A stretch of DNA of 64,000 bases from a virus (lineage: Duplodnaviria; Heunggongvirae; Uroviricota; Caudoviricetes), in the IMG/VR virus record IMGVR_UViG_3300049571_000258, positions 70,186 through 134,185 of that record; one strand, given 5' to 3'. Shown here in pieces: positions 2,747-47,180 of this stretch (its first letter is position 1; the number at the start of each line of letters is the position of its first letter). A model generated the notes under the pieces. It was not told where the DNA came from. It was given only the letters and a program-made list of their open reading frames with translations, and searched no databases. Both the position numbers and the translations under genes were made by a program.

Positions 2747-5700
2747 GTGCCGACGAAGCGCGCACAGCGTCCGACGGGCGCCTCACGCATCATCGCCGCG
2801 TTCGGCCGGTACTACAAGCGGTCACGCGCAGGCGCGTCTCGGCGCGTCCTGGCGCTCCTGAGGCGCGAGCACCCTGAGCAGTCTCCCGCCGCCCTGCGAG
2901 CGCTGTTGGCGCGTGAGCAGGTCTACGAGGCGGAGTTCCAGCGCAAGATGACGGCGCGTCTGGAACGCGACATCCCGGGGATCCTGGCTCACGACGACCC
3001 GGATCACCGCAACCAGGCGATCGCTGACGTGCTCGCACGCGAGCGTCGGTTCGTCCAGATGCGCGAGCAGGCGATGGCCGAGCGCGCACTGGCCGCCGCC
3101 GAGATCGTGACCCTAGAGAAGATCTCGCCGCAGGGCGCGTTCTGGACGCTCTCGCCAGACGTCCAGAACCACACGCTGGACTGCCTGGCGATGGCCAACC
3201 AGTTCTGGCCCTACGAGGTGCTGCACAACATCCACCCACCACTGCACGTCGGGTGCCAGTGCCGCCTGATCCCGCTGCGCGACGCGATCGCACAGGGCCT
3301 CATGCGCGCCGACCAGATCCCCGACGCCCGCGACGCCGTCGTTCGTGCGCAGGCGGCTATCAAGGCGGCGCAGTCACTGGAGGAGGCCGACGCCAAGGCG
3401 CTGATCGAGGCGGCTTTCGATGATCGCCTGCATCCCCGCGGGCGTGACGGCCGGTTCATCCGCAAGTTCTCCAACCTGATCCACACGAAGCCTCCGGCGC
3501 AGAGCAACGGCGGGCGCTGGACGTGGGTCGCCGGGCATCGCGTCTTCGTGCCGGAGGGCCGCACCTTCCAGCGCACGTTCGGCGGGCGGACGTACGTCTC
3601 TCCGGCGCAGTCGACGAACATCTACGCCGACGGCAAGCTCGTGCCCCCCTCGCGACGCTTCGCCCCATTGACGATGCCGGACGGCAAGCTGGACACCGGC
3701 ACGATCGAGCGCATCCGCTCGGAGGTCGGCGACTTCGCCAAGCCTCCGACGTCGGAGCCGAAGCCGGGTGGTCAGCTGATCGACCACACGTGGGCGAACT
3801 GGGGCGAGTTCCAGCAGGAGACCAACGCGCTGTCGGCTGCACTGGGGCGCGAGTTCCACGTCGATGCGCAGCAGGGCAACGTCGACTTCGACACGAGGAT
3901 GTTCGACCACGCCGGGGCCACGGACTACAGCGGCAACACGACCTTCGGCCCCGACGTCTTCAACACGATCGAGAAGGAAGCGACGCGCCCGACCACGGGC
4001 CTGCCGCCGACCGATCAGGAGTTGGCCGACATCTACAACACGTACCGCGTGCAGGCGCACGAGGTCTCCCATCGAGTCAACTGGGCCAATCACCACGCGT
4101 ACTCGATGCCCGGCGGAGCGGTGCTAGAGGAGGCGCTGTCAGAGGAGGTCGCGCATGCGCTGCTGAAGGCCAACCTCCAGCGCCACGGTCGCGAGGACGT
4201 GTTGCGCTGGGGCGAGCAGCACCCGAACGCTGACGAGGTGCTGGGCACGTACCGCGCCTACCGGCTGGCCCTGAAGACGGCCCTGGACCAGATGGGCGTA
4301 CCGGAGCGCGACCGCATCCCGATCCTGTTCAAGTTGAAGTTCCAGACCGACCCGGAGGATCGTCTCAACGAGATGGTCCGCATCGGGCGCGGCTACCTCG
4401 GCGATGCGGCCCCCGACCTTGACGACCTGCGCGAGACCCTGGACCGCAGCGACTACGACGCGGCGAAGTACCGCTCGATCATTCCGGGCGACACGGGCCT
4501 ACCGGACCCCGGGACGCCGCTGACCGAGCGCTCGCTGGTCACCTCGATGCTCGACGGCGCGCAGCTGCTCTCGCGGCAGCACGCCAACGCGTCGGTCCAC
4601 TTCTCCGGCGTCGACTGGGCGTCACCGGAGATCGAGTACCCCTTCAACGCGCGCTACTTCCCCGGGCGCGGGCGCGTGGAGACCGGCGCGGGGATCTACC
4701 CGGCGATCAAGCGTGCATGGGAGGCCGACCACGGCGGCCCACCGCTGTCTGACGACGAGGCGCGCGATGGGTGGATGGCGCTGGCCAACCTCCAGCACGA
4801 GTTCCAGCATGCGGTCAACCCGACGCCCCAGCTTCAGTACGGCCAGGGTTGGAAGCGCGTCCTGGAGGAGGGCATCAACGAGGAGATCGCTCGGCAGGAG
4901 GCGGTTGCGACGGCGCGGCGCTTGGGCATGCACTCGGTCGTCGGCTGGGCGGAGCGCAACCGCGACGACTTCGCCGTGGCTGGCACCTACCAGTCCTACC
5001 GCCAGGCGGTGCGCCAGGTGCTGGAGGACGCCAAGGTGCCCAAGGAGAACTGGCGCGACCTGCTGTACCGGATGAAGTTCGAGATGACGCAGGACGAGCG
5101 CATGGCGCTGCTGCGCGATCACATGGCCAAGGCCAACGGCTGGGGGCCGGACTATGCGCGCGACCTGACGGCGCTGGCGCTCTCGCGCGGCGACCACCCG
5201 CGCGAACTCAAGATCGACGACTTCGAGCCGATGTTGGGCTGGCCGGAGTCGATCGTCCGGCCGCCGAAGCGCGTGGGTAAGGCCGACCCCGGCACGAAGC
5301 CGCTGGGCGGGAGGCTGACGCCGGAGACCGAGGAGACGTTGAGCAACCCGTCGTGGAGCTTCGAGATCGACCACACGCGCCGCAACGCCTACTACGGGGA
5401 CACGCACGTGCTGCGCGTCGCGCCGCGGTCGACGCCGGGCACGCGCCGCGTCGGCTCCGGCGACGTGTTCACCTACGACACGAAGGTGGCCGACGTCTCG
5501 ATCGAGGACGGTCGCCCGACTCCGGCCTTCAAGGGCGGCGACGGCTGGTCGCTGGATCTGCCCGACGAGCCGCAGCGGGGCATCGTGTTCCGGGGCATGT
5601 CCCACGGCGAGATGGAGACGCTGCGCAAGACCGGGCAGATCCACTCTCGCGGGCGCTTCAACCTCGGTGAGTCGCAGGTCGGTCTGACCTTCTACTCGAC

Positions 5701-10679: not shown

Positions 10680-10752
10680 TGGCCAGTAGCTCAGTCGGCA
10701 GAGCCATCGCCTGTTAAGCGAGGGGTCGCAGGTTCGAGTCCTGCCTGGCCAG
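10680..10752 (+). tRNA. tRNA-Asn: tRNA-Asn (GTT)
   Basis: Acceptor tggccag/ctggcca, D gctc/gagc, loop ctGTTaa, T-arm gcagg-ttcgagt-cctgc. Confidence 0.65.
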
Positions 10753-11174: not shown

Positions 11175-12371
11175 ATGTCTGCCAGTCTGTGCGACGTGGA
11201 CCTCACGGATGCAGACATCATCCAGACGGTCAGGCGCCACCGGGGGCAGATCCAGCCTGCCGCTCGTGCGCTCGGAATCGCTCCGTCCACACTACGCAGC
11301 CGGATCAACAACCGACCTGACGTGGTCGCGGCCATCGAGGCGATCCGTGCGGAGCACGGCTTCGGCGGCACGCCCACCGCGGCTCCCCTTGAGCCGACCG
11401 GCGCGCAGCAGGACGCGGACGAGTTCCATCACCGTCTGCACACACTCCTGAAGAAGCGCGGCGGCACGGTCGAGGAGATCGCCGACGCGCTCGACGTCGC
11501 GCCACGGCGCGTGCGGGAGGGCATCGAGCAGCTACAGCACAGGGGCTTCCGTGTCGGCAGCCCCACCGGCAACGACGAGCAGATCGTTCTGCATCGCGTC
11601 GCGCCGGACAAGCTAAACCTGCACAAGTCGCTGCTGGACGGCGACCATCTGCGGATCGGCGTCGTCTCCGACACGCACCTCGGCTCCAACGAGGAGGCGC
11701 TGGGCGAGCTTCACCTCGCCTACGACCGCTTCCAGGAGGAGGGGATCACCGAGGTCTATCACGCGGGCGACTTCGTCTGCGGCCTCGGGATCTTCCCGAC
11801 GCAGGGGTCCGAGATCCACGAGCACACCTTCGAGGACCAGGTCGAGTACCTGGTCGAGAACTACCCCAAGCGCGACGGCATCATCACACGCGGGATCTCC
11901 GGCAACCACGACATCGAGGGCCAGTTCGGGCGCATCGGTGCCGACCCGGTCGCCGCGGCTGCGCACCGGCGCGACGACATCGACTACCTGGGCGCGTACT
12001 CGGCCTGGGTGGAGCTTCCCAACGGGGCGTGGATGCATCTGCTCCACGGCAAGGGCGGGATGTCCTACGCGTATAGTTACAAAGCTCAGAAGCTAGTGGA
12101 CGGCTACCCGTCGGGCCGCAAGCCCGCGATCCTGTGCGTCGGCCACTGGCACGTGTCGGGCCACATCGAGGCGCGCGGCGTGCAGGTCATCTGGCCGGGG
12201 GCGTTCGAGTGGAAGTCGAAGTTCATGGAGCGCCTGGGCCTCTCGCCCTCGGTGGGCTTCCAGATCCTGGACATCGCTCTGGGCGAGGACGGGTCCCTGG
12301 TGCAGTTCACCCGCAACTGGTTCAGGTTCTGGGAGGGCCGAACCGTCGTCTCCACCCCCGATGCCTCATAA
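11175..12371 (+). CDS. N-terminal HTH fused to a calcineurin-like metallophosphoesterase
   Basis: N-terminus ALGIAPSTLRSRI (Fis-type HTH); phosphoesterase motifs DTHLG, GDFV, GNHD, GHWH. Confidence 0.7.
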   Translation: MSASLCDVDLTDADIIQTVRRHRGQIQPAARALGIAPSTLRSRINNRPDVVAAIEAIRAEHGFGGTPTAAPLEPTGAQQDADEFHHRLHTLLKKRGGTVEEIADALDVAPRRVREGIEQLQHRGFRVGSPTGNDEQIVLHRVAPDKLNLHKSLLDGDHLRIGVVSDTHLGSNEEALGELHLAYDRFQEEGITEVYHAGDFVCGLGIFPTQGSEIHEHTFEDQVEYLVENYPKRDGIITRGISGNHDIEGQFGRIGADPVAAAAHRRDDIDYLGAYSAWVELPNGAWMHLLHGKGGMSYAYSYKAQKLVDGYPSGRKPAILCVGHWHVSGHIEARGVQVIWPGAFEWKSKFMERLGLSPSVGFQILDIALGEDGSLVQFTRNWFRFWEGRTVVSTPDAS

Positions 12372-12777
12372 GGATCCGGCGGCGCGCAAGGCGTACATGG
12401 ACGCCTACAACGCGCGGCGACGCGCCGAGATGCGCGAGTATTGCCGCGAGTGGCGGCGCGAGCACCCGGAGAGGGCGAAGGCGGCGCACGACGCCTGGAA
12501 GGCGAAGTACCCCGATCGCGCGCGTGACCTGTGGCGACGGATGGCCCACCGGCGCGCGGGGGACCTCACGTCCGAGACACAGGAGTACGACACGATCCTG
12601 CGCGGCGACCCGTGCTGCTACTGCGGCGCGCCGACGAAGGAGGTCGACCACATCGTGCCCCTGGCGAGCGGTGGCGATGGGGCGTGGGACAACCTCACGG
12701 CGGCGTGCAGGCACTGCAACCGCTCGAAGCACGGTGCGCCCCTCTTGCACTTCCTCCTGCGCCGCGCTACGGTGTAG
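12361..12777 (+). CDS. HNH endonuclease
   Basis: CCYCG...EVDHIVPLASGG...DNL..ACRHCNRSK, the classic HNH zinc-finger nuclease motif. Confidence 0.8.
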   Translation: MPHKDPAARKAYMDAYNARRRAEMREYCREWRREHPERAKAAHDAWKAKYPDRARDLWRRMAHRRAGDLTSETQEYDTILRGDPCCYCGAPTKEVDHIVPLASGGDGAWDNLTAACRHCNRSKHGAPLLHFLLRRATV

Positions 12778-16732: not shown

Positions 16733-16753
16733 GCACACGTCGTGTGCTACGGT
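16733..16753 (+). promoter_or_regulatory. promoter/operator: gcacacgtcgtgtgc + TACGGT, upstream of the Y-RNA-like element
   Basis: Perfect-half-site palindrome immediately followed by a TAnnnT -10 box. Confidence 0.5.
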
Positions 16754-16795: not shown

Positions 16796-16933
16796 AGGCG
16801 GAGCGGGCCGACGGGCTGTCGGTTATCTCCTGTTAAGAGAGCGTTCCAGGTTCGAGTCCTGGCCCCCGCGCTCGTGGGGGTGGTGTAACGGCAACACGCT
16901 AACGGTCGACTCCCATTCCACGACCGCTCCGCC
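16796..16933 (+). ncRNA. yrlA: Y RNA (YrlA-like: tRNA-like module closed by a long terminal helix), the Rsr partner RNA
   Basis: 10-bp perfect long-range helix ggcggagcgg (16796-16805) with ccgctccgcc (16924-16933). It encloses a T-arm ccagg-TTCGAGT-cctgg, a D-arm-like gtgt-aacggca-acac and a GTT-loop hairpin, none of which folds as a normal tRNA. Sits between a promoter and the Ro60 gene. Confidence 0.55.
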
Positions 16934-16968: not shown

Positions 16969-18735
16969 ATGTCGTACCTACACCAGGTCAGCACACGCCG
17001 CACGCCGCAGCGTGAGCGCATCCCGGGGCGCACCGACCAGGTGCAGAACTCCGAGGGCGGCTTCGTCTGGGCGGTCGACAAGTGGACGCGCCTGGAGCGC
17101 TTCCTGATCCTCGGCGCGGAGGGCGGCACCTACTACATCGGCGAGGCCGACCTGACGAAGCAGAACGTCGGCGTGCTCGACGACTGCCTGACGGACGACC
17201 CGGCGCGCACGGTCTCCACGATCGTCGCCGTGTCGGCTGCTGGGCGCAACGCGAAGCAGGAGCCGGTCGTCTTCGCCCTGGCGTACGCCGCCGGGTTCCG
17301 CACCGAGGCCGCTCGTCAGGCGGCGCTGCGCGCGCTGCCTGACGTTGTGCGCACCGGCTCGCACATGGGCCTGTTCCTGTCCTACGTGCAGAACTTCCGC
17401 GGCTGGGGCCGCTCGCTGCGCCGCGCCGTCGGCCAGTGGTACGTCTCGCGCGACCGCATCACGGTCGACGAGGAGACCGGCGAGGCGGTCGTCGCCGAGC
17501 GCGCCGTCGACCGGGTCGCCTTCCAGATGGTCAAGTACCGCTCGCGCTACGGGTTCTCGCAGCGCGACGCCCTGCGCAAGGCGCACCCGGCCAACCGGGT
17601 GTCGTCGCGCAACCCGACGGTCGAGGGCCTGACGGAGGACCACGAGCGGCTGTACAACTGGGTCGTCAACGGTGGGGCCGACGAGCGTCTGCCGCAGGTC
17701 GTGCACGCCTTCGAGGCGGCGCAGGCGTCCGAGTCGCCTGCGCAGACGGCGAAGCTGATCGAGCGCTACGGCAACCTGCTGACGCGCGAGATGCTGCACA
17801 CCGAGCACCTGACCGACCGGGACGTCAACCGCGCCCTGGTCGAGGCAGGCATGCCGATGGGCGCGCTCGTGCGCAACCTGGCCAATCTGACGCGCTACGG
17901 CGTCTTCGAGGACCGCGCCTACGTCAAGCAGGTCGTCGCACAGCTGACCAACCCGGACGCGGTGCGCCGGTCGCGCCTGCACCCGTACGCGGTGCTGACG
18001 GCGCTGTGCACGTACGCGGCGGGCTACTCGATGACCAACCCCGAGCAGCGCTGGAACCCGGTCGCGCAGATCGTGGACGCGCTCGACGCAGCGTTCTACC
18101 TGTCGTTCGGCAACGCCGAGCCGACGGGGAAGCGCATCCGCCTGGCGCTGGACGTGTCCGGCTCGATGGGCCACCCGATCATCACCGGCTACCGCAAGGG
18201 CCGCTACGGCATGGAGGCGGTCCCGTCAGCCGTGTCGTGCGCGGCGGGCGCGGGGGCGATGGCGCTCGTGACGGCGAACATCGAGGACGACTACGACATC
18301 GTCGCGTTCTCGGACGGCCAGACCGGCGGCAGGTACATCGGCGGGTCGTGGGGCTACAACGGGGACGCGTCGGGCGCGGTGCTGGCACCGTGCACGATCT
18401 CGCCGCGCCAGCGTCTCGACGACGTCGTCGGGCAGATGAACCGGCTGAACTTCGGGCGCACCGACTGCGCGCTACCGATCCTGGACGCGGCGCAGCGAGG
18501 CCTGGAGTTCGACGCGTTCGTGGTCTACACCGACAACGAGACGTGGTTCGGCAAGGTCCACCCGACGCAGGCGCTCGCGGAGTACCGCCAGAAGACCGGG
18601 ATCCCGGCGAAGCTGGTCGTCGTGTCGATGGAGGCCAACCAGTTCTCGATCGCTCACCCCGACGACCCGGGCATGCTCGACGTCGTCGGGTTCGACCCGG
18701 CTGCCCCGGCGGTGATCGCGGACTTCCTGCGATGA
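16969..18735 (+). CDS. rsr: Ro60 ortholog Rsr (TROVE domain plus C-terminal vWA/MIDAS domain)
   Basis: SEGGFVWAVDKWTRLERFLILGAEGGTYYI and GRNAKQEPVVFALAY match the Ro60 N-terminal signature (human [29 protein letters not shown] / GRTTKQEPMLFALAI); C-terminal LALDVSGSM...T...D MIDAS motif. Confidence 0.9.
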   Translation: MSYLHQVSTRRTPQRERIPGRTDQVQNSEGGFVWAVDKWTRLERFLILGAEGGTYYIGEADLTKQNVGVLDDCLTDDPARTVSTIVAVSAAGRNAKQEPVVFALAYAAGFRTEAARQAALRALPDVVRTGSHMGLFLSYVQNFRGWGRSLRRAVGQWYVSRDRITVDEETGEAVVAERAVDRVAFQMVKYRSRYGFSQRDALRKAHPANRVSSRNPTVEGLTEDHERLYNWVVNGGADERLPQVVHAFEAAQASESPAQTAKLIERYGNLLTREMLHTEHLTDRDVNRALVEAGMPMGALVRNLANLTRYGVFEDRAYVKQVVAQLTNPDAVRRSRLHPYAVLTALCTYAAGYSMTNPEQRWNPVAQIVDALDAAFYLSFGNAEPTGKRIRLALDVSGSMGHPIITGYRKGRYGMEAVPSAVSCAAGAGAMALVTANIEDDYDIVAFSDGQTGGRYIGGSWGYNGDASGAVLAPCTISPRQRLDDVVGQMNRLNFGRTDCALPILDAAQRGLEFDAFVVYTDNETWFGKVHPTQALAEYRQKTGIPAKLVVVSMEANQFSIAHPDDPGMLDVVGFDPAAPAVIADFLR

Positions 18736-24339: not shown

Positions 24340-24701
24340 TGCCGCATCCCGTAGTCACGACCTGCGTGAACGGCCATGTGATCGCCGAGGTCGGGCGCTA
24401 TCGCTCCGATCGGGACAGGTATGGCCCCTGCAAGGCGTGCAATCGGGAAGCTGTCCGCAAGCATCGCCGTCGTCGCGCCGACTACGTGCGCGCCCTGAAG
24501 CTAGAGCGGGGCTGCATGCGGTGTGGTTACGCGCGGTCTGCTGCGGCGCTCGATTTTCACCACCGCGATCCGTCGCTCAAGAAGTTCTCGATCAGCCAGG
24601 CGATCACGCGCCCGTGGGACGCGGTGCTCTCGGAGATCGAAAAGTGCGATGTCATTTGCCGTAACTGCCACGCCGAACTCCACGAAGGGGAGGATCGATG
24701 A
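24339..24701 (+). CDS. HNH-type zinc-finger nuclease-like protein
   Basis: C..GH...C..C...H..RC.YC...LDFHH.D...K....CRNCHAELH. Confidence 0.55.
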   Translation: MPHPVVTTCVNGHVIAEVGRYRSDRDRYGPCKACNREAVRKHRRRRADYVRALKLERGCMRCGYARSAAALDFHHRDPSLKKFSISQAITRPWDAVLSEIEKCDVICRNCHAELHEGEDR

Positions 24702-25483
24702 AGGTCTATGTCGCTGGCCCCATGTCGCATGTTCCACGTTTCAACTTCCCCGCCTTCGACGCCGCTGCGGCGGACCTGCGCGCGCGCGGCTACGACGTCG
24801 TCTCCCCGGCGGAGATCGACGACCCCGAGATCCGTGAGATGGCGCTCGCGTCGCCAGATGGCAACCCGACGGGCACGCGCGGCACGTGGGGCGACTTCCT
24901 CGCGCGCGACGTGAAGCTGATCGCCGACTCGGGTGTGGAGGCGGTCGTCGTGCTGCCGGGCTGGGATGGGTCGAAGGGCGCGCGCCTGGAGACGTTCATC
25001 GCGAAGCTGACGCAGCTGGGCGTCTACCACTACGGCCCGGACGACCCGTTGGCCGAGGTGCCCTACCGTGACCTCGTCAACGCGTGGGCCGAGGGCGAGC
25101 AGGTTCCCGCGGTCGACATGGGCGAGGTCCGGGTCGTCAACGAGAAGACCGGCGGGGCGAAGGGCCAGAAGATGATCCGCTGGTCGCTCGTGCCCGACGA
25201 GCAGATGGCGAAGGTCGCGCAGCTGTACGCCGTCGGCGCGATGAAGTACGCCGCACATAACTGGCGCAAAGGCTACGACTGGAGCCTGTCCTACGACGCG
25301 CTCCGGCGTCACCTGAGCGCGTTCTGGAACAACGGCGAGTCGCTGGACACCGAGCACGCCGACGGCATGACGACGCATCACCTCGCCGCGGTGATCTTCC
25401 ACGCGCTGGCGTTGATGCACTTCGAGGACCACTACCCGGAGGGCGACGACCGTCCGAAGCCGGGCCTGAATACGGAGGGCTGA
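24698..25483 (+). CDS. DUF4406-like (nucleoside 2-deoxyribosyltransferase-like) domain fused to a C-terminal domain resembling the N-terminal domain of dATP/dGTP diphosphohydrolases
   Basis: N-terminus MKVYVAGPMS..P.FNFP.F......L...GY.V.SPAE...LPGW..S.GA..E (DUF4406 pattern); C-terminus KYAAHNWRKG...THHLAAV.FHALALMHF. The C-terminal assignment is tentative. Confidence 0.6.
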   Translation: MKVYVAGPMSHVPRFNFPAFDAAAADLRARGYDVVSPAEIDDPEIREMALASPDGNPTGTRGTWGDFLARDVKLIADSGVEAVVVLPGWDGSKGARLETFIAKLTQLGVYHYGPDDPLAEVPYRDLVNAWAEGEQVPAVDMGEVRVVNEKTGGAKGQKMIRWSLVPDEQMAKVAQLYAVGAMKYAAHNWRKGYDWSLSYDALRRHLSAFWNNGESLDTEHADGMTTHHLAAVIFHALALMHFEDHYPEGDDRPKPGLNTEG

Positions 25484-26002: not shown

Positions 26003-26379
26003 TCGGCCCGCTGCTGGAGTGCGGTCACTTCTGCCACCAGGGCGATCAGTGTGACCCGCTCGACGAGCGTGAGGAAGCCTTCCTGCTGTGGTTGGGCGAG
26101 CACTGCCTGCGCGACGACCTGCGCGCGCCCTTCAGCGCCCACTCGACACACCGGGCCGACCAGGAGCCGTTCATGCGCGACGCGCCCAACCGGCGCCAGG
26201 ACGGCAACGCGTGGTTGATGCTGGACAAGAAGGGCGTCATAACCTGGGCCTACGACCACAAGGGCAAGGGCAACGCGACGATGCGCTACCGGCTGACGGC
26301 GCGCGGGGAGCAGCTGCTGCGTGCGCTGCGGCCGGAGCCGCCGGAGCAGCTGACGATCGAGGAGGGTGTTGATGGCTGA
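25999..26379 (+). CDS. hypothetical protein (126 aa)
   Basis: ORF track; overlap-coupled start. Confidence 0.5.
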   Translation: MIGPLLECGHFCHQGDQCDPLDEREEAFLLWLGEHCLRDDLRAPFSAHSTHRADQEPFMRDAPNRRQDGNAWLMLDKKGVITWAYDHKGKGNATMRYRLTARGEQLLRALRPEPPEQLTIEEGVDG

Positions 26380-26899
26380 CTGGGATGGGCGCTACCTGGC
26401 GATGGCGAAGCTCGTCGCCTCGTTCTCGAAGGATCCGAGCACGCAGTGCGGCGCGGTGATCGTGCGGCCAGACCGCACGCTGGCGAGCGTCGGCTTCAAC
26501 GGGTTCCCGATCGGTTGCGACGACGACGAAGCGCTGTACGCCGACCGCGAGACGAAGTACAGCCGGGTGGTGCACGCGGAGGTCAACGCTGTGCTGCTGG
26601 CGCGCGAGCCGGTGCACGGCTACACGCTGTACACGTACCCGGAGGGGTTCGGCCCGACGTGCGATCGCTGCGCGACGGTCGTGATCCAGGCGGGCATCAA
26701 GAGGGTCGTCCACGTCTTCGCTGACTCGCCGTTCGCGTCGCGCTGGCGCGAGGCCAACGAGCGCGGCCTGGCGATGTACGAGGAGGCGGGCGTCGAGGTT
26801 GTGCGCTACTGCTGGCACGACTACCAGATGCACCCCGGCTCCGACGACTTCGGCGTCTGCTCCCTGTGCGGCACGGAACGTTACGGGGACGAGCAGTAG
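26372..26899 (+). CDS. dCMP / cytidine deaminase-family zinc enzyme
   Basis: VHAEVNA (H-A-E zinc motif) and PTCDRCA (PCxxC) at canonical spacing; SD gaggag 8 nt upstream of ATG 26372. Confidence 0.8.
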   Translation: MADWDGRYLAMAKLVASFSKDPSTQCGAVIVRPDRTLASVGFNGFPIGCDDDEALYADRETKYSRVVHAEVNAVLLAREPVHGYTLYTYPEGFGPTCDRCATVVIQAGIKRVVHVFADSPFASRWREANERGLAMYEEAGVEVVRYCWHDYQMHPGSDDFGVCSLCGTERYGDEQ

Positions 26900-45699: not shown

Positions 45700-45749
45700 A
45701 AGACCTGACCGCGACACCCAGATTCGCGCCGCCCCACCGTAGGGCACCG

Positions 45750-45778
45750 TTGACATCTCGTCGGCGGTGCCCTACACT
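45750..45778 (+). promoter_or_regulatory. sigma70-like promoter TTGACA, 17 bp spacer, TACACT, heading the second tRNA island
   Basis: Consensus -35/-10 at canonical spacing; followed by a leader hairpin and tRNA-Ser at 45934. Confidence 0.5.
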
Positions 45779-45933: not shown

Positions 45934-46021
45934 GGAGGGTGACCCTGGGCGACGGGCCTGGGACCGGATTCGAAACCCGGTGGTCTCTCACGAGGCAGGG
46001 GTTCGATTCCTCCGCCCTCCG
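45934..46021 (+). tRNA. tRNA-Ser: tRNA-Ser (CGA), type II (long variable arm)
   Basis: Acceptor ggagggt/gccctcc, anticodon loop ttCGAaa, 17-nt variable arm, T-loop ttcgatt. Confidence 0.55.
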
Positions 46022-46036
46022 CTTGCAGTACCTCAT

Positions 46037-46120
46037 GCCGAGGTGGCTGGAACGGTAGACGCGGGAGGCTCAGACCCTCCTGGGGGAGACCCCGTGCAGG
46101 TTCGACTCCTGTCCTCGGTA
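46037..46120 (+). tRNA. tRNA-Leu: tRNA-Leu (CAG), type II
   Basis: Resembles bacterial tRNA-Leu: gccgagg-tg-gc...ggtagacgc; anticodon stem ggagg/cctcc, loop ctCAGac; variable hairpin ggggg-aga-ccccg; T-arm gcagg-ttcgact-cctgt. Confidence 0.7.
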
Positions 46121-46124
46121 CTTC

Positions 46125-46214
46125 GGGCGGTGTCCGTGGTGGCACGAGGGGCGGCGTTGCTAGCGCCGTAGCGCCGGTCCTCCGGCGTCCAGGGTTCGAA
46201 GCCCTGACCGCCCG
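46125..46214 (+). tRNA. tRNA-Ser: tRNA-Ser (GCT), type II
   Basis: Acceptor gggcggt/accgccc perfect; anticodon stem cggcg/cgccg, loop ttGCTag; variable hairpin gccgg-tcct-ccggc; T-arm caggg-ttcgaag-ccctg. Confidence 0.65.
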
Positions 46215-46273
46215 CTCCAGCGGAGGACCCGTGGGTGTCGCCGCTCTCCTGGCTGAAGCGGGCGGTCTTTCTC

Positions 46274-46348
46274 GGAACGGTAGCTCAGTCGTGGTCAGAG
46301 CGCGGGCTTGAAACACCCGAGGTCGTCGGTTCAACTCCGACCCGTTCC
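46274..46348 (+). tRNA. tRNA-Phe: tRNA-Phe (GAA)
   Basis: Acceptor ggaacgg/ccgttcc perfect, D gctc/gagc, loop ttGAAac, T-arm gtcgg-ttcaact-ccgac. Confidence 0.65.
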
Positions 46349-46354
46349 GCTCGT

Positions 46355-46435
46355 GTCGGGGATGCCCCCTGGGAGGTGGCAGCTGCCTGTAAAGCAGTGG
46401 CCTCGTGCGTGTGGGTTCGAATCCCTCCCCCGGCA
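46355..46435 (+). tRNA. tRNA-Tyr: tRNA-Tyr (GTA), long variable region
   Basis: Acceptor gtcgggg/ccccggc, anticodon stem gctgc/gcagt, loop ctGTAaa, T-loop ttcgaat. Confidence 0.55.
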
Positions 46436-46439
46436 CCTA

Positions 46440-46460
46440 GCTCACAACGTGTGCTATAGT
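46440..46460 (+). promoter_or_regulatory. promoter/operator: gctcacaacgtgtgc + TATAGT
   Basis: Immediately after tRNA-Tyr; followed ~80 nt later by a strong terminator; no ORF in between. Confidence 0.5.
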
Positions 46461-46544
46461 GCCCGGCACATACTGATCCTCGTGATGTAGCCCATCGCGG
46501 GCGGAGGTCAGGCACGAGAGCACAGCCGCATCTGAGTAGGCTGA

Positions 46545-46576
46545 GCGCCCCGGCATCCGTCGGGGCGCTTCTTGTT
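46545..46576 (+). terminator. intrinsic terminator (8-bp GC stem plus TTCTTGTT)
   Basis: gcgccccg-gcatccgt-cggggcgc-ttcttgtt. Confidence 0.6.
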
Positions 46577-46593
46577 GAGCGCCGAGAAGATCT

Positions 46594-46602
46594 CTGCTAC
46601 GC
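46594..46602 (+). promoter_or_regulatory. extended -10 TGcTACGCT placing the TSS at the 5' end of the tRNA (CAT)
   Basis: The -10 ends 7 nt before the first tRNA nucleotide. Confidence 0.4.
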
Positions 46603-46609
46603 TCTCGCG

Positions 46610-46683
46610 AGCGCGGTGGAGCAGTCCGGTAGCTCGTCTGGCTCATAACCAGAAGGTCGCGGGTTCGAATCCCGCTCGCGCCA
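46610..46683 (+). tRNA. tRNA-Met: tRNA with CAT anticodon (Met; initiator-like 1:72 mismatch, or Ile2)
   Basis: Closely resembles E. coli tRNA-fMet (tggagcag.c.ggtagctcgtc.ggctcataacc.gaaggtcg.gggttcaaatcc); A1/C72 unpaired; only 2 GC pairs at anticodon stem 29-31. Confidence 0.65.
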
Positions 46684-46830
46684 CCTCTCATGCAGAAGCG
46701 ACCCGACACCTCGGCCGTCCTGACGGCTGCGCGACGACCGCGCAGGCGACGGCCAGTTGTGCTCTAGGGTCGCTCCCACCTCACGGGAGCCATCCCCGCC
46801 GTCGACCGTAGGGTCCATGGGCGGGCGCTC

Positions 46831-46902
46831 CCGGGTGTAGCTCAATGGCAGAGCGCGTGGTTTGGGACCACGAGGCCGCAGGATCGGTACCTGCCTCCCG
46901 GA
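46831..46902 (+). tRNA. tRNA-Pro: tRNA-Pro (TGG), non-canonical T-loop
   Basis: D gctc/gagc, anticodon stem cgtgg/ccacg, loop ttTGGga, T-arm gcagg-atcggta-cctgc; one T-T mismatch in the acceptor. Confidence 0.55.
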
Positions 46903-46909
46903 CTGACTT

Positions 46910-47116
46910 GCCCTCTCCGCGGGATTGCGGCTCCGGGTCTACGAAGCCTGGCAGGGTGGTTCGACTCCATCAGGGGGTACTCCCTCATCGGCGGTCCGAC
47001 GCCGGGTGTCCGAAGCCTGGACGGGCGGTTCAACTCCGCCTGGGGGCATGCCCTGCGGATGGATCCCGGCTGGCCTCCTAAGCTGGCAACGCGTCGTTCG
47101 ACTCGGCGGCGGGGTA
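46910..47116 (+). repeat. three tandem ~68-70 nt tRNA-like units, each with a T-arm and acceptor-like closing stem but no canonical D/anticodon arms
   Basis: R1 46910-46979, R2 46981-47048, R3 47050-47116. Each carries a stem-TTCGACT/TTCAACT-stem T-arm followed by a 7-nt 3' strand complementary to its own 5' end, and shares ..cgaagcctgg.. in the middle. Confidence 0.4.
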
Positions 47117-47119
47117 CCT

Positions 47120-47140
47120 GCTCACGATGTGTGCTACGGT
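47120..47140 (+). promoter_or_regulatory. promoter/operator: gctcacgatgtgtgc + TACGGT
   Basis: Followed by SD ggagaggtaggtag plus ATG 47181. Confidence 0.5.
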
Positions 47141-47180
47141 GTCCGGCGTGTGTAGTGCCAACGACCGGAGAGGTAGGTAG

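What the first reader, a model, noticed from the sequence alone, without database searches (positions are those of the whole stretch)
46910..47116. Three tandem 67-70-nt tRNA-like units that have a T-arm and acceptor closure but no D/anticodon arms
Each unit (46910-46979, 46981-47048, 47050-47116) starts with a C-rich 7-mer (gccctct, tccctca, gccctgc). Each ends with a complementary G-rich 7-mer (agggggt, tgggggc, gcggggt) directly preceded by a canonical T-arm (ggtgg-TTCGACT-ccatc, ggcgg-TTCAACT-ccgcc, cgtcg-TTCGACT-cggcg). A shared ..cgaagcctgg.. core sits in the middle. They cannot be folded as normal cloverleafs. They could be armless tRNAs, tRNA-mimicking RNAs that act as decoys for tRNA-targeting defences or nucleotidyltransferases, or a repeat family derived from a tRNA 3' half. 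The plus-strand ORF 46925..47155 over them is almost certainly spurious.
Basis: seen in the sequence. Interest (0 to 1): 0.55.

Follow-up and report, generated by a model that had tools for sequence, protein, structure and literature searches.

The report
Three compact phage arginine tRNA genes
The three "armless tRNA-like" repeats are very probably working arginine tRNA genes of an uncultured phage, built on an unusually shrunken core that standard tRNA detectors miss and that recurs, only in arginine tRNAs, in the unrelated phage contigs sampled here.

Summary
The three tandem units are real: 46910-46979, 46981-47048 and 47050-47116, on the + strand.

Each unit has:
- a 7-bp acceptor stem and a canonical T-arm;
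- a 6-bp anticodon stem with a 7-nt loop;
- an arginine anticodon: ACG, CCG or CCT;
- a short D hairpin that starts directly at nucleotide 8.

The units end a phage tRNA operon. Two related phage contigs carry three tRNA-Arg genes with the same three anticodons at the same place, and five of those six are canonical. The three anticodons cover 99.9% of the arginine codons in the window's genes.

The core is non-canonical: no acceptor/D connector, a 3-4 bp D stem, a 2-6 nt D loop that keeps GG, a 2-nt connector, a 6-bp anticodon stem and a 3-4 nt variable loop. It resembles mitochondrial tRNA-Ser(UCN) and tRNA-Pyl. The Rfam tRNA model does not detect the units, and ARAGORN at default calls only one.

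The same plan appears in tRNA-Arg genes of two unrelated phage lineages and covaries strongly. I found no description of it in the literature I could search.

Verdict: real tRNA-Arg genes and a new structural variant. Function has not been tested experimentally.

The parts
46910..46979 (+). Unit 1 = tRNA-Arg(ACG), 70 nt including discriminator A. Acceptor 5' strand 46910-46916. D hairpin CCGC-GGGATT-GCGG 46917-46930. Connector CT 46931-46932. 6-bp anticodon stem 46933-46938 with 46946-46951. Loop CTACGAA 46939-46945, anticodon 46941-46943. Variable loop CAG 46952-46954. T-arm 46955-46971. Acceptor 3' strand 46972-46978.
   Evidence: ARAGORN default call and its drawn structure. All helices verified. 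The compact fold is essentially the minimum-free-energy fold. 76% and 69% identical over 49 structural nt to the canonical Arg(ACG) genes of L024 and L036.
46981..47048 (+). Unit 2 = tRNA-Arg(CCG), 68 nt. Acceptor 5' strand 46981-46987, with a T1xC72 mismatch. D hairpin TCGG-CGGT-CCGA 46988-46999. Connector CG 47000-47001. 6-bp anticodon stem 47002-47007 with 47015-47020. Loop GTCCGAA, anticodon 47010-47012. Variable loop ACG 47021-47023. T-arm 47024-47040. Acceptor 3' strand 47041-47047. Discriminator A 47048.
   Evidence: ARAGORN calls it at 97% of default thresholds. Its best Rfam hit is tRNA-Sec at 26 bits, below the gathering score. 80% identical to unit 1, with an identical anticodon stem, so it is probably a duplicate of unit 1 with A34->C34. 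The compact fold lies 4.4 kcal/mol above an alternative minimum-free-energy fold.
47050..47116 (+). Unit 3 = tRNA-Arg(CCT), 67 nt. Acceptor 5' strand 47050-47056. D hairpin GGA-TGGA-TCC 47057-47066. Connector CG 47067-47068. 6-bp anticodon stem 47069-47074 with 47082-47087. Loop CTCCTAA, anticodon 47077-47079. Variable loop AACG 47088-47091. T-arm 47092-47108. Acceptor 3' strand 47109-47115. Discriminator A 47116.
   Evidence: ARAGORN calls it at 98% of default thresholds, but only by shifting the acceptor register. The compact fold is the minimum-free-energy fold. It has the same plan as L036 Arg(CCT) 1653-1723.
46037..46903 (+). Upstream part of the same tRNA cluster: Leu(CAG), Ser(GCT), Phe(GAA), Tyr(GTA), initiator-type Met(CAT) and Pro(TGG). 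All are canonical.
   Evidence: ARAGORN and Rfam calls. Core-geometry table. The same order is found in L024 and L036.
45750..45778 (+). Sigma-70-like promoter (TTGACA-17-TACACT) upstream of the tRNA cluster. It is the candidate start of the polycistronic tRNA precursor.
   Evidence: Consensus scan: 1 found against 0.0 expected in shuffles. Function is inferred, not shown.
46925..47155 (+). Mechanical ORF overlapping the three tRNA genes. It is spurious.
   Evidence: Flat GC by codon position, 0.70/0.68/0.65, against real genes. No gene was called here on the identical contig L023.

Best explanation
The three units are the arginine tRNA set of an uncultured, high-GC, actinophage-like virus: tRNA-Arg(ACG), tRNA-Arg(CCG) and tRNA-Arg(CCT). 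They form the 3' end of a co-oriented tRNA operon.

Inferred mechanism:
- They are transcribed as one precursor, probably from the promoter-like site at 45750.
- Host RNase P and 3'-processing enzymes cut them apart. Only 1 nt separates each discriminator base from the next tRNA, and no CCA is encoded, so the host CCA-adding enzyme must complete them.
- Host ArgRS charges them. C35, G36/U36 and A73 are present in all three. An A follows the D-loop GG at the A20 position in units 1 and 3.
- They then decode the phage's own arginine codons: ACG (after deamination of A34 to inosine) reads CGU/CGC/CGA, CCG reads CGG, and CCT reads AGG.

The unusual feature is the core.
- The D stem (3-4 bp) starts at nucleotide 8, with no U8/N9 connector.
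- The D loop is only 2-6 nt but keeps GG.
- Two nucleotides link the D stem to an anticodon stem lengthened to 6 bp, by a Watson-Crick pair at the 26-44 position.
- The variable loop is 3-4 nt.

This is the compact-core solution known from mammalian mitochondrial tRNA-Ser(UCN), which keeps G18G19 and the T-loop motif, and from tRNA-Pyl. I infer that it still gives an L-shape.

Unit 2 appears to be a duplicate of unit 1 that changed its anticodon and replaced the ancestral canonical Arg(CCG) gene.
For: Shown:
- All four helices are intact in each unit.
- Anticodon loops are 7 nt with T33 and A37-A38. Unit 1's loop is CTACGAA, which from my own knowledge is the classic TadA substrate loop.
- ARAGORN assigns Arg to all three at 97% of default thresholds or higher, where the shuffle false-positive rate is 0.1-0.2 per 64 kb.
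- Synteny. L024 and L036 encode a neighbouring DUF6551 protein that is 60% and 56% identical. Both have the cluster Met-Pro-Arg(ACG)-Arg(CCT)-Arg(CCG), followed by a small ORF and then DUF6551.
- Codon match. Of 811 Arg codons in 24 window genes, CGC is 65%, CGG 15%, CGT 9%, AGG 6%, CGA 4% and AGA 0.1%. The three anticodons therefore cover 99.9%.
- Core geometry. All other class-I tRNAs of the three genomes have an 18-22 nt D region, and almost all lack a Watson-Crick 26-44 pair. The exceptions are the relatives' odd tRNA-Met (15 nt, with a 26-44 pair) and the window's tRNA-Asn 10680-10752, which has a C-G at 26-44 but a canonical 19-nt D region. The three units have 17, 15 and 13 nt and C-G, C-G and G-C at 26-44.
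- Covariation. A hand-padded alignment of 7 compact tRNA-Arg from three lineages shows 98.6% of 147 cells paired. 18 of 21 pairs change on both sides. All 3 D-helix pairs covary. The sixth anticodon-stem pair is CG x2, GC x2, AU, UA and one unpaired. Controls with the partner slid by 1-3 columns pair in 35-51% of cells (the 4-sequence version is).
- A 4-bp Watson-Crick D helix in this exact register has P of about 0.007-0.013 per sequence in shuffles.
- Recurrence. Among 250 distinct tRNAs from 50 unrelated phage loci, the three shortest D regions (14 nt) are all tRNA-Arg with the same plan: 3 of 27 Arg against 0 of 223 others.
- Identity rules for bacterial ArgRS (A20, C35, U/G36, A/G73) are taken from PMC9976931.
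- The compact-core precedent is described in PMC7609411.
Against: - There are no expression, processing or aminoacylation data.
- The Rfam tRNA model gives no hit to any unit at E<=10, and ARAGORN at default calls only unit 1.
- Unit 2 has a T1xC72 mismatch and a T instead of A after the D-loop GG. Its thermodynamic optimum is a different D helix (6 bp, loop GUCCGA), 4.4 kcal/mol better than the compact fold.
- Both covariation alignments were padded by hand to fit the proposed structure. They hold few sequences, and some of these are paralogues: units 1 and 2, and the two L084 genes share a D hairpin.
- The host, and therefore its ArgRS, is unknown.
- Only 64 kb of a 134-kb contig was seen, so canonical Arg tRNAs could exist elsewhere in the genome.
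Confidence: 0.8

Rival explanations
1. Decaying tRNA-Arg pseudogenes. The units are former canonical Arg tRNAs that lost parts of their D arms by deletion and are no longer used. The phage relies on host tRNA-Arg instead.
For: - The relatives L024 and L036 have canonical versions at the same place.
- The units fail the Rfam model.
- Unit 2 has a 1-72 mismatch and lacks A at the A20 position.
- Other degenerate-looking tRNAs occur in the cluster.
Against: - All helices remain fully paired, with compensatory changes.
- The loss of D-arm length comes with a gained Watson-Crick 26-44 pair in all three units. This reads as a coordinated redesign, not random decay.
- T-loops and anticodon loops are canonical.
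- Unit 2 looks like a duplicate of the compact unit 1 that took over the CCG role.
- The same architecture recurs in Arg tRNAs of unrelated phages.
- The anticodon set fits the phage's codon usage.
Confidence: 0.1
2. tRNA mimics or decoys. The units are processed into tRNA-shaped RNAs whose main role is not decoding. They might soak up or evade a host tRNA-Arg-directed nuclease, modification enzyme or other defence factor, or serve as a ligand for the phage's own Ro60 protein.
For: - The abnormal elbow and core could change recognition by tRNA-binding proteins.
- Compaction is restricted to Arg tRNAs in three phage lineages, which suggests an Arg-specific pressure.
- The same window encodes a Ro60/TROVE orthologue, a family that binds tRNA-like Y RNAs (my own knowledge).
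Against: - Three different anticodons that exactly complement the phage's Arg codon usage are unnecessary for a decoy.
- The anticodon loops are unaltered, so they show no sign of anticodon-loop evasion.
- There is no Rfam YrlA/Y RNA hit.
- The Ro60 gene lies 30 kb away.
- No tRNA-targeting system or counter-defence gene was seen among the neighbouring ORFs that were scanned.
Confidence: 0.07
3. A local repeat family derived from a tRNA 3' half (att-site-like duplication debris), or a protein-coding ORF (46925-47155).
For: - Units 1 and 2 are 80% identical over the structural positions.
- Real att-site fragments of tRNA-Arg(CCT) with non-tRNA 5' halves do occur in viral contigs (L118 and L121).
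- A 76-codon ORF spans the region.
Against: - Each unit has its own complementary 5' acceptor strand, a D hairpin and a complete anticodon arm.
- Unit 3 is only 63-67% identical to units 1 and 2 and carries a different anticodon.
- The ORF has no codon-position GC signature and was not called on the identical contig.
Confidence: 0.02

Closest known systems
Canonical bacterial or phage tRNA-Arg (Rfam RF00005 tRNA; for example the Arg(ACG/CCG/CCT) genes of the related contigs L024 and L036)
   Same: - 7-bp acceptor stem and 5-bp T stem with a TTCRAnT loop.
- 7-nt anticodon loop with U33 and A37.
- Arg anticodons, discriminator A73, and GG in the D loop.
- The same position in the same tRNA operon.
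   Different: - No 2-nt U8/N9 connector.
- D region of 13-17 nt instead of 18-22 nt.
- D loop of 2-6 nt.
- 6-bp rather than 5-bp anticodon stem.
- 3-4 nt variable loop.
- Not detected by RF00005, whereas the canonical neighbours and orthologues score 55-64 bits.
Mammalian mitochondrial tRNA-Ser(UCN) ('type I' mt-tRNA), as described in PMC7609411
   Same: - Reduced acceptor/D connector and a small D loop.
- Anticodon stem extended to 6 bp.
- About 3-nt variable loop.
- G18G19 and the T-loop motif are retained, so a D/T-loop elbow is still possible (for the description; for the units).
   Different: - Organellar, AT-rich and serine-specific, and read by dedicated mitochondrial factors.
- It has one connector nucleotide, where the phage units have none if the first D pair forms.
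- The phage units are GC-rich and arginine-specific, and presumably use an ordinary bacterial translation apparatus.
- No common ancestry is implied.
tRNA-Pyl (Methanosarcina, Desulfitobacterium, and especially Ca. Methanomethylophilus alvus), as described in PMC7609411
   Same: - Compact core: 0 nt (M. alvus) or 1 nt between the acceptor and D stems.
- 4-5 nt D loop, 6-bp anticodon stem and 3-nt variable loop.
   Different: - tRNA-Pyl lacks G18G19 and the T-psi-C motif, reads UAG, and pairs with a dedicated synthetase, PylRS.
- The phage units keep GG and TTCRA and carry Arg anticodons.
- No dedicated synthetase was seen in the window.
D-armless tRNAs (mt-tRNA-Ser(AGY); nematode and mite mt-tRNAs; the engineered 'mini HisT' of PMC11551756)
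   Same: They are shorter than normal tRNAs because of a reduced D region.
   Different: Those tRNAs have no D helix at all, only a 4-5 nt connector, and they fold into a Y shape. Here a covarying 3-4 bp D hairpin with a GG loop is present.
Compact tRNA-Arg genes in unrelated phage contigs found here: L084/L081-type Arg(TCG) and Arg(CCT), and L110 Arg(TCG)
   Same: - The same plan: 7-bp acceptor, a D hairpin starting at nt 8 with an (A)TGGA loop, and a 2-nt connector.
- 6-bp anticodon stem (5 bp in L110) and 3-4 nt variable loop.
- 67-68 nt long.
- Arg anticodons only.
- Also missed by the Rfam tRNA model.
   Different: - Different phages (about 54-61% GC) with no sequence similarity beyond tRNA-generic positions.
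- ARAGORN calls them at default settings.
- The anticodons include TCG.

Membership tests
tRNA (generic; Rfam RF00005 / ARAGORN model) | 7-bp acceptor stem closed by the 5' and 3' ends, followed by a discriminator base | tested here: met
   7 of 7 pairs, including G-U, in units 1 and 3. 6 of 7 in unit 2, which has a T1xC72 mismatch. Discriminator A in all three.
tRNA (generic; Rfam RF00005 / ARAGORN model) | T-arm: 5-bp stem plus a 7-nt loop with the T54-psi55-C56-R57-A58 motif, abutting the acceptor 3' strand | tested here: met
   GGTGG-TTCGACT-CCATC, GGCGG-TTCAACT-CCGCC and CGTCG-TTCGACT-CGGCG.
tRNA (generic; Rfam RF00005 / ARAGORN model) | Anticodon arm with a 7-nt loop, U33 and a purine at 37 | tested here: met
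   Loops CTACGAA, GTCCGAA and CTCCTAA. The stems are fully paired.
tRNA (generic; Rfam RF00005 / ARAGORN model) | Canonical core: 2-nt connector (U8, N9), 3-4 bp D stem at positions 10-13/22-25, D loop of 7 nt or more, unpaired N26, 5-bp anticodon stem | tested here: not met
   The D region is 17, 15 and 13 nt, against 18-22 nt in the canonical class-I tRNAs of the same genomes. The helix starts at nt 8. The 26-44 position is Watson-Crick. A D helix in the shifted register 10-13/18-21 pairs in only 31% of cells.
tRNA (generic; Rfam RF00005 / ARAGORN model) | Score at or above the detector's threshold | tested here: not met
   No RF00005 hit at E<=10. ARAGORN at default calls only unit 1. Units 3 and 2 need 98% and 97% of the default thresholds, where the false-positive rate is still 0.1-0.2 per 64 kb. 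tRNAscan-SE was not available.
Bacterial tRNA-Arg identity set (PMC9976931) | C35 and G36 or U36 in the anticodon | tested here: met
   The anticodons are ACG, CCG and CCT.
Bacterial tRNA-Arg identity set (PMC9976931) | A or G at discriminator position 73 | tested here: met
   A in all three units.
Bacterial tRNA-Arg identity set (PMC9976931) | A20 in the D loop, directly after G18 G19 | tested here: inconclusive
   Unit 1 has GGGA and unit 3 has TGGA, so an A follows the GG. Unit 2 has CGGT, with T there instead. Numbering in such a small loop is by analogy only. The compact Arg tRNAs of L036, L084 and L110 all have GGA.
Bacterial tRNA-Arg identity set (PMC9976931) | Actual arginylation by ArgRS | not testable with these tools
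   This needs an in vitro charging assay or an acid-gel/tRNA-seq assay.
Compact-core tRNA fold (mt-tRNA-Ser(UCN) / tRNA-Pyl type, PMC7609411) | 0-1 nt between the acceptor stem and the D stem | tested here: met
   A Watson-Crick pair involves nt 8 in all three units, and in L036 Arg(CCT), L084 and L110. That pair covaries: CG x5, GC x1, UA x1.
Compact-core tRNA fold (mt-tRNA-Ser(UCN) / tRNA-Pyl type, PMC7609411) | Small D loop (about 4-5 nt) | tested here: met
   The loops are GGGATT (6 nt), CGGT (4 nt) and TGGA (4 nt, or GG if the fourth pair forms).
Compact-core tRNA fold (mt-tRNA-Ser(UCN) / tRNA-Pyl type, PMC7609411) | 6-bp anticodon stem | tested here: met
   The sixth pair is C-G, C-G and G-C in units 1-3. 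Across 7 sequences it is CG x2, GC x2, AU, UA and one unpaired.
Compact-core tRNA fold (mt-tRNA-Ser(UCN) / tRNA-Pyl type, PMC7609411) | 3-nt variable loop | tested here: inconclusive
   Units 1 and 2 have 3 nt (CAG, ACG). Unit 3 has 4 nt (AACG).
Compact-core tRNA fold (mt-tRNA-Ser(UCN) / tRNA-Pyl type, PMC7609411) | L-shaped tertiary structure despite the compact core | not testable with these tools
   This needs structure probing, crystallography or cryo-EM.
   A 3-4 bp D hairpin is present in every unit and covaries.
Bacterial Y RNA tRNA-like module (YrlA, RF02553) | A tRNA-like domain embedded in a Ro-binding helix, with no anticodon loop, and a match to the YrlA model | tested here: not met
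   There is no YrlA hit on the units at E<=10 or in the window at gathering score. The units have closed 7-nt anticodon loops.

The most novel reading that the evidence does not exclude
Compact-core tRNA-Arg is a distinct structural class of phage-encoded tRNA that has arisen or spread repeatedly. It is a natural tRNA working in bacterial cytoplasmic translation with an mt-tRNA-Ser(UCN)/tRNA-Pyl-like core. On present evidence it is restricted to arginine acceptors, and covariance-model annotation misses it systematically.

The Arg restriction would then reflect a specific selective cause. One candidate is that ArgRS needs only G18-G19-A20 of the D arm. Another is that a remodelled elbow lets the phage tRNA escape a host factor that targets or degrades tRNA-Arg during infection.
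Probability: 0.45. Interest if true: 0.65.

Novelty: new variant of a known kind. Interest (0 to 1): 0.5.

Why it matters
If these tRNAs are functional, they show that ordinary bacterial translation accepts a natural tRNA with a strongly compacted core. That covers RNase P, the CCA-adding enzyme, ArgRS, probably TadA, EF-Tu and the ribosome. Such a core has so far been described for organellar tRNAs and for tRNA-Pyl. [quoted passage not shown]

In the sample examined here, the compaction occurs only in arginine tRNAs, in three unrelated phage lineages. That points to an Arg-specific rule or pressure that can be tested directly.

There is also a practical consequence. The Rfam tRNA model gave no hit to any of the six compact genes it was run on. 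Phage tRNA complements, and the codon-usage or host-independence analyses built on them, may therefore under-count tRNA-Arg.

Such small natural tRNAs could also be useful scaffolds for engineering orthogonal tRNAs.

Tried and rejected
1. An exact or degenerate search for the unit 1/2 anticodon arm in IMG/VR gave 22 loci. All were chance matches inside coding sequence, plus one unrelated tRNA.
2. The adjacent 113-aa ORF is an orphan, found only on this contig and on identical copies, so it gave no relatives.
3. Relatives were fetched through the DUF6551 neighbour: single-protein and profile scans of IMG/VR and JGI metagenomes, plus 9 contig look-ups for its homologues. Only L024/L025 and L036 carried the tRNA cluster.
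4. The conserved hairpin between tRNA-Met and tRNA-Pro, used as a search pattern, gave no IMG/VR match.
5. The tRNA-Pro anticodon-arm pattern returned unrelated phages. These were useless as relatives, but they later served as an unbiased background set.
6. ARAGORN at -ps80 is uninformative, giving about 120 false calls per shuffled 64 kb. I replaced it with a threshold titration.
7. Automatic MAFFT/RNAalifold alignment misaligned the 5' halves and missed the D helix. I used alignments padded by hand with N instead, which biases them towards the proposed structure.
8. My first 'canonical register' control string mis-specified the anticodon stem. Only its D-helix row is usable.
9. BLAST of the units and of L084 Arg(TCG) against 50,697 phage records found nothing.
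10. A link to Y RNA/Ro60 found no YrlA support.
11. The phage deaminase ORF 26366-26899 is dCMP/dCTP-deaminase-like, not TadA.
12. Six literature searches found no description of compact phage tRNA-Arg. This shows absence in the held library only.
Full report
**What is at the coordinates**

The window is a 67-69% GC stretch in which nearly all plausible genes lie on the + strand. It carries two tRNA clusters: 13 ARAGORN calls at 10.5-16.9 kb and 7 at 46.0-47.0 kb. Its proteins include RecA, DnaG primase, RNase H, a Ro60 orthologue, an HNH endonuclease and a large peptidoglycan-binding, endolysin-domain protein. The nearest matches, all distant, are to Mycobacterium and Gordonia phages. The window belongs to a 134-kb JGI metagenome contig, and an identical 20.5-kb Logan contig exists. 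No cultured phage is close. I read it as an uncultured actinophage-like virus.

The complementary C-rich and G-rich 7-mers and the T-arms are as described.

Each unit folds into a four-way junction, not an armless hairpin. The middle of each unit is an anticodon arm:
- CCGGGT-CTACGAA-GCCTGG (unit 1)
- CCGGGT-GTCCGAA-GCCTGG (unit 2)
- GCTGGC-CTCCTAA-GCTGGC (unit 3)

The loops are 7 nt with T33 and A37-A38, and the anticodons are ACG, CCG and CCT, all arginine.

ARAGORN calls unit 1 as tRNA-Arg(ACG) at default settings. It calls unit 3 at 98% and unit 2 at 97% of its default thresholds. At those settings, dinucleotide shuffles of the whole window give 0.1-0.2 calls per 64 kb. A much looser setting is meaningless, with about 120 false calls.

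The Rfam tRNA model finds none of the three even at E<=10. Unit 2's best hit is tRNA-Sec at 26 bits, below the gathering score.

The overlapping ORF 46925-47155 has no codon-position GC signature. It was not called as a gene on the identical contig.

**Relatives**

The adjacent 113-aa ORF is an orphan. The next gene, a DUF6551/ParB-like protein, has about 46 relatives. Two contigs with 60% and 56% identical proteins, L024 and L036, are syntenic.
- Both have a tRNA cluster ending Met-Pro-Arg(ACG)-Arg(CCT)-Arg(CCG), then a small ORF, then DUF6551.
- Five of their six Arg genes are canonical. The three that fell within the Rfam scan of L036 or the R1 search scored accordingly: L036 Arg(ACG) and Arg(CCG) reach 63 and 55 bits with Rfam.
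- So the window's units occupy the arginine slot of a conserved phage tRNA operon and carry the same three anticodons.
- More distant DUF6551 loci have no tRNAs nearby.

**Fit to codon usage**

In 24 confidently coding window genes (10,132 codons, 8.0% Arg), the Arg codons are CGC 65%, CGG 15%, CGT 9%, AGG 6%, CGA 4% and AGA 0.1%. ACG, read as inosine-CG, together with CCG and CCT covers 810 of 811 Arg codons. A decoy or a pseudogene set has no reason to show this match.

**The unusual core**

I tabulated every ARAGORN tRNA of the window, L024 and L036.
- Canonical class-I tRNAs have 18-22 nt between the acceptor 5' strand and the 5-bp anticodon stem. The stretch usually starts with T8, and almost all have no Watson-Crick 26-44 pair. 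One canonical tRNA, tRNA-Asn 10680-10752, does have C-G there.
- The three units have 17, 15 and 13 nt, and C-G, C-G and G-C at 26-44. Their anticodon stems are therefore 6 bp.
- In all three, a Watson-Crick helix begins at nucleotide 8, with no connector. It ends exactly 2 nt before the 6-bp stem.
- The D loop is 2-6 nt but keeps GG. The variable loop is 3-4 nt.
- L036's Arg(CCT) at 1653-1723 has the same plan. Rfam misses it too, and ARAGORN finds it only by breaking acceptor pairs to force a 2-nt connector.
- In a background of 132 pattern-matched tRNA-Arg(CCT) genes from bacterial genomes and viral contigs, every D region is at least 18 nt. The only exceptions are two att-site fragments.

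**Covariation**

On a hand-padded alignment of the four compact genes, the proposed structure pairs in 98.9% of cells. All four D-helix pairs change on both sides. A D helix shifted to the canonical register pairs in 31% of cells.

A 4-bp Watson-Crick D helix in this exact register has a shuffle probability of about 0.007-0.013 per sequence.

These alignments were fitted to the structure by hand. Units 1 and 2 are paralogues. The numbers are therefore supportive, not decisive.

**Evolution inside the window**

- Unit 1 is 76% and 69% identical, over 49 structural positions, to the canonical Arg(ACG) genes of L024 and L036.
- Unit 2 is 80% identical to unit 1, with an identical anticodon stem. 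It is only 59% and 55% identical to the Arg(CCG) genes.
- The gene order is ACG-CCG-CCT here and ACG-CCT-CCG in the relatives.
- The simplest reading is that unit 2 is a tandem duplicate of the already compact unit 1 that changed A34 to C34 and replaced the ancestral canonical CCG gene. That is hard to reconcile with the compact form being non-functional.

**Recurrence elsewhere**

I built a covariance model from the four compact genes (R1). I searched it against about 0.5 Mb of unrelated phage loci that had been fetched for other reasons.
- It scored a 68-nt element, identical in six contigs of about 54% GC (L081, L084 and others), at 50.7 bits. That is above every canonical tRNA in the search.
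- ARAGORN calls this element tRNA-Arg(TCG) with the anticodon at position 29. It also finds an Arg(CCT) of the same kind in the same phage and an Arg(TCG) in L110.
- All three share the plan: a hairpin starting at nt 8 with an (A)TGGA loop, a 2-nt connector, and a 6-bp (5 bp in L110) anticodon stem.
- The two L084 genes were scanned with Rfam, and the tRNA model misses both while detecting their neighbours.
- Among 250 distinct tRNAs of these 50 loci, the three shortest D regions (14 nt) are exactly these three Arg genes: 3 of 27 Arg against 0 of 223 others.
- With all seven compact Arg genes from three lineages, 98.6% of 147 cells pair and 18 of 21 pairs change on both sides. All D-helix pairs covary. 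The sixth anticodon-stem pair is CG, GC, AU or UA in six of seven sequences. Slid controls pair in 35-51% of cells.

**How it most likely works**

Shown: gene structure, synteny, anticodon set, codon fit, covariation and recurrence.

Inferred:
- The units are transcribed with the upstream tRNAs, perhaps from the TTGACA-17-TACACT site at 45750-45778.
- RNase P and 3' trimming separate them. Only 1 nt lies between each discriminator and the next gene.
- The host adds CCA, since none is encoded.
- ArgRS charges them. All three have C35, G36/U36 and A73. Units 1 and 3, and all four compact genes in other contigs, have A directly after the D-loop GG, which is the A20 position that dominates bacterial arginine identity (PMC9976931). 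Unit 2 has T there.
- From my own knowledge, unit 1's loop CUACGAA is the TadA substrate loop. The window's own deaminase ORF is dCMP-deaminase-like, not TadA, so host TadA would be needed.

**Comparison with what is known**

The architecture is the compact-core solution described for mammalian mt-tRNA-Ser(UCN) and tRNA-Pyl. That solution has a 0-1 nt acceptor/D connector, a small D loop, a 6-bp anticodon stem and a 3-nt variable loop. mt-tRNA-Ser(UCN) keeps G18G19 and T-psi-C, as these units do. M. alvus tRNA-Pyl has no connector and a 4-nt D loop (PMC7609411).

The units are not D-armless tRNAs of the mt-Ser(AGY) or mini-HisT kind. They are not a Y RNA module either.

I file the units as tRNA-Arg genes by function and position. 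They fail the canonical-core features of the generic tRNA model.

A 2024 paper states that all known bacterial tRNAs have the canonical fold (PMC11551756). Six literature searches found no description of compact phage tRNA-Arg. That shows absence in the held library only.

**Verdict**

The finding is real, and its interpretation needs correcting. These are three tRNA-Arg genes (confidence 0.8 that they are functional decoders) with a non-canonical compact core. In the sample examined, that core recurs specifically in phage arginine tRNAs and escapes standard covariance-model annotation. It is a new structural variant of a known kind. Interest is moderate (0.5), and would be higher if a census and biochemistry confirm an Arg-specific phage tRNA class.

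Noticed in passing
window 16969-18735 (+), with 16798-16871 and 16742-16753: A Ro60/Rsr orthologue (TROVE 2e-32 plus Ro60 vWA 4e-54) lies directly after tRNA cluster 1. About 100 nt upstream is a 'tRNA-Asn(GTT)' that only ARAGORN calls: it has one acceptor mismatch and no Rfam tRNA or YrlA hit at E<=5. That element is preceded by the promoter-like motif GTGTGCTACGGT. It could be a tRNA-like partner RNA of Ro60 or simply another atypical tRNA.
   Followed up: partly
L024 4852-4934, L036 1290-1372, L113 (80-nt tRNA-Met call): An odd 79-83-nt 'tRNA-Met(CAT)' in the two relatives and in an unrelated 107-kb phage contig. It has a hairpin starting at nt 8 (GCCC-AGGTTC-GGGC). Its anticodon stem can extend to 8 bp, with three compensatory changes between L024 and L036. 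It has a 15-nt variable region and scores only 25 bits with Rfam tRNA. The window has a canonical initiator-type tRNA-fMet at the equivalent place (46610-46685), 95% identical to one annotated as fMet in Caulobacter phage CcrSC.
   Followed up: partly
window about 46713-46755; L024 about 4970-5008; L036 about 1403-1445: A conserved nested hairpin lies between tRNA-Met and tRNA-Pro: GCCGTC...GCTGCGCGA(0-4 nt)CCGCGCAGGCGACGGC. It is present in all three related contigs, although the flanking spacer sequence diverges. An exact-pattern scan of IMG/VR found no other copy. It may be a processing or terminator-like element, or a small RNA.
   Followed up: partly
window 45938-46022 (+); L036 199-281; L024 about 3340-3420: A possible additional degenerate tRNA-Ser(CGA) lies just upstream of tRNA-Leu. 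ARAGORN calls it only at 95% thresholds, with several acceptor mismatches. It is conserved in position and sequence in both relatives.
   Followed up: no
window 14181, 16742, 19645, 26801, 45553, 47129 (+) and 45736-45747 (-): The motif GTGYGCTACKGT occurs 7 times, against 1.07 expected. Copies lie just upstream of the Ro60 region and just downstream of unit 3, before the next gene. Similar GTGCGCTACGGT/TATAGT motifs precede tRNA-Met and the downstream gene in L024 and L036. It is probably the -10 region of a phage promoter class.
   Followed up: partly
window 24698-25483 and 26366-26899 (+): One ORF combines DUF4406 with the N-domain of dATP/dGTP diphosphohydrolase (MazZ/DatZ-like). Nearby is a dCMP/dCTP-deaminase-like ORF. 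Together they suggest nucleotide-pool remodelling and possibly modified DNA bases. No PurZ-like gene was seen among the ORFs scanned.
   Followed up: no
window 12361-12777 (+): An HNH endonuclease ORF is embedded inside tRNA cluster 1, and L036 has a small ORF directly upstream of its tRNA cluster. Homing-endonuclease-type genes seem to be associated with the tRNA arrays.
   Followed up: no
L074 8192-8264, L082 5420-5492, L113, L016 7894-7967: Unrelated phage contigs fetched as background carry suppressor-type tRNAs with anticodons CTA (amber) or TTA (ochre). This is consistent with stop-codon recoding in those phages.
   Followed up: no
L118 and L121 (IMG/VR UViGs from isolate genomes): Two 'tRNA-Arg(CCT)' pattern matches have a genuine 3' half but a non-tRNA 5' half. 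They are typical of prophage att sites formed by integration into a tRNA-Arg gene, and they show what true tRNA 3'-half debris looks like.
   Followed up: no
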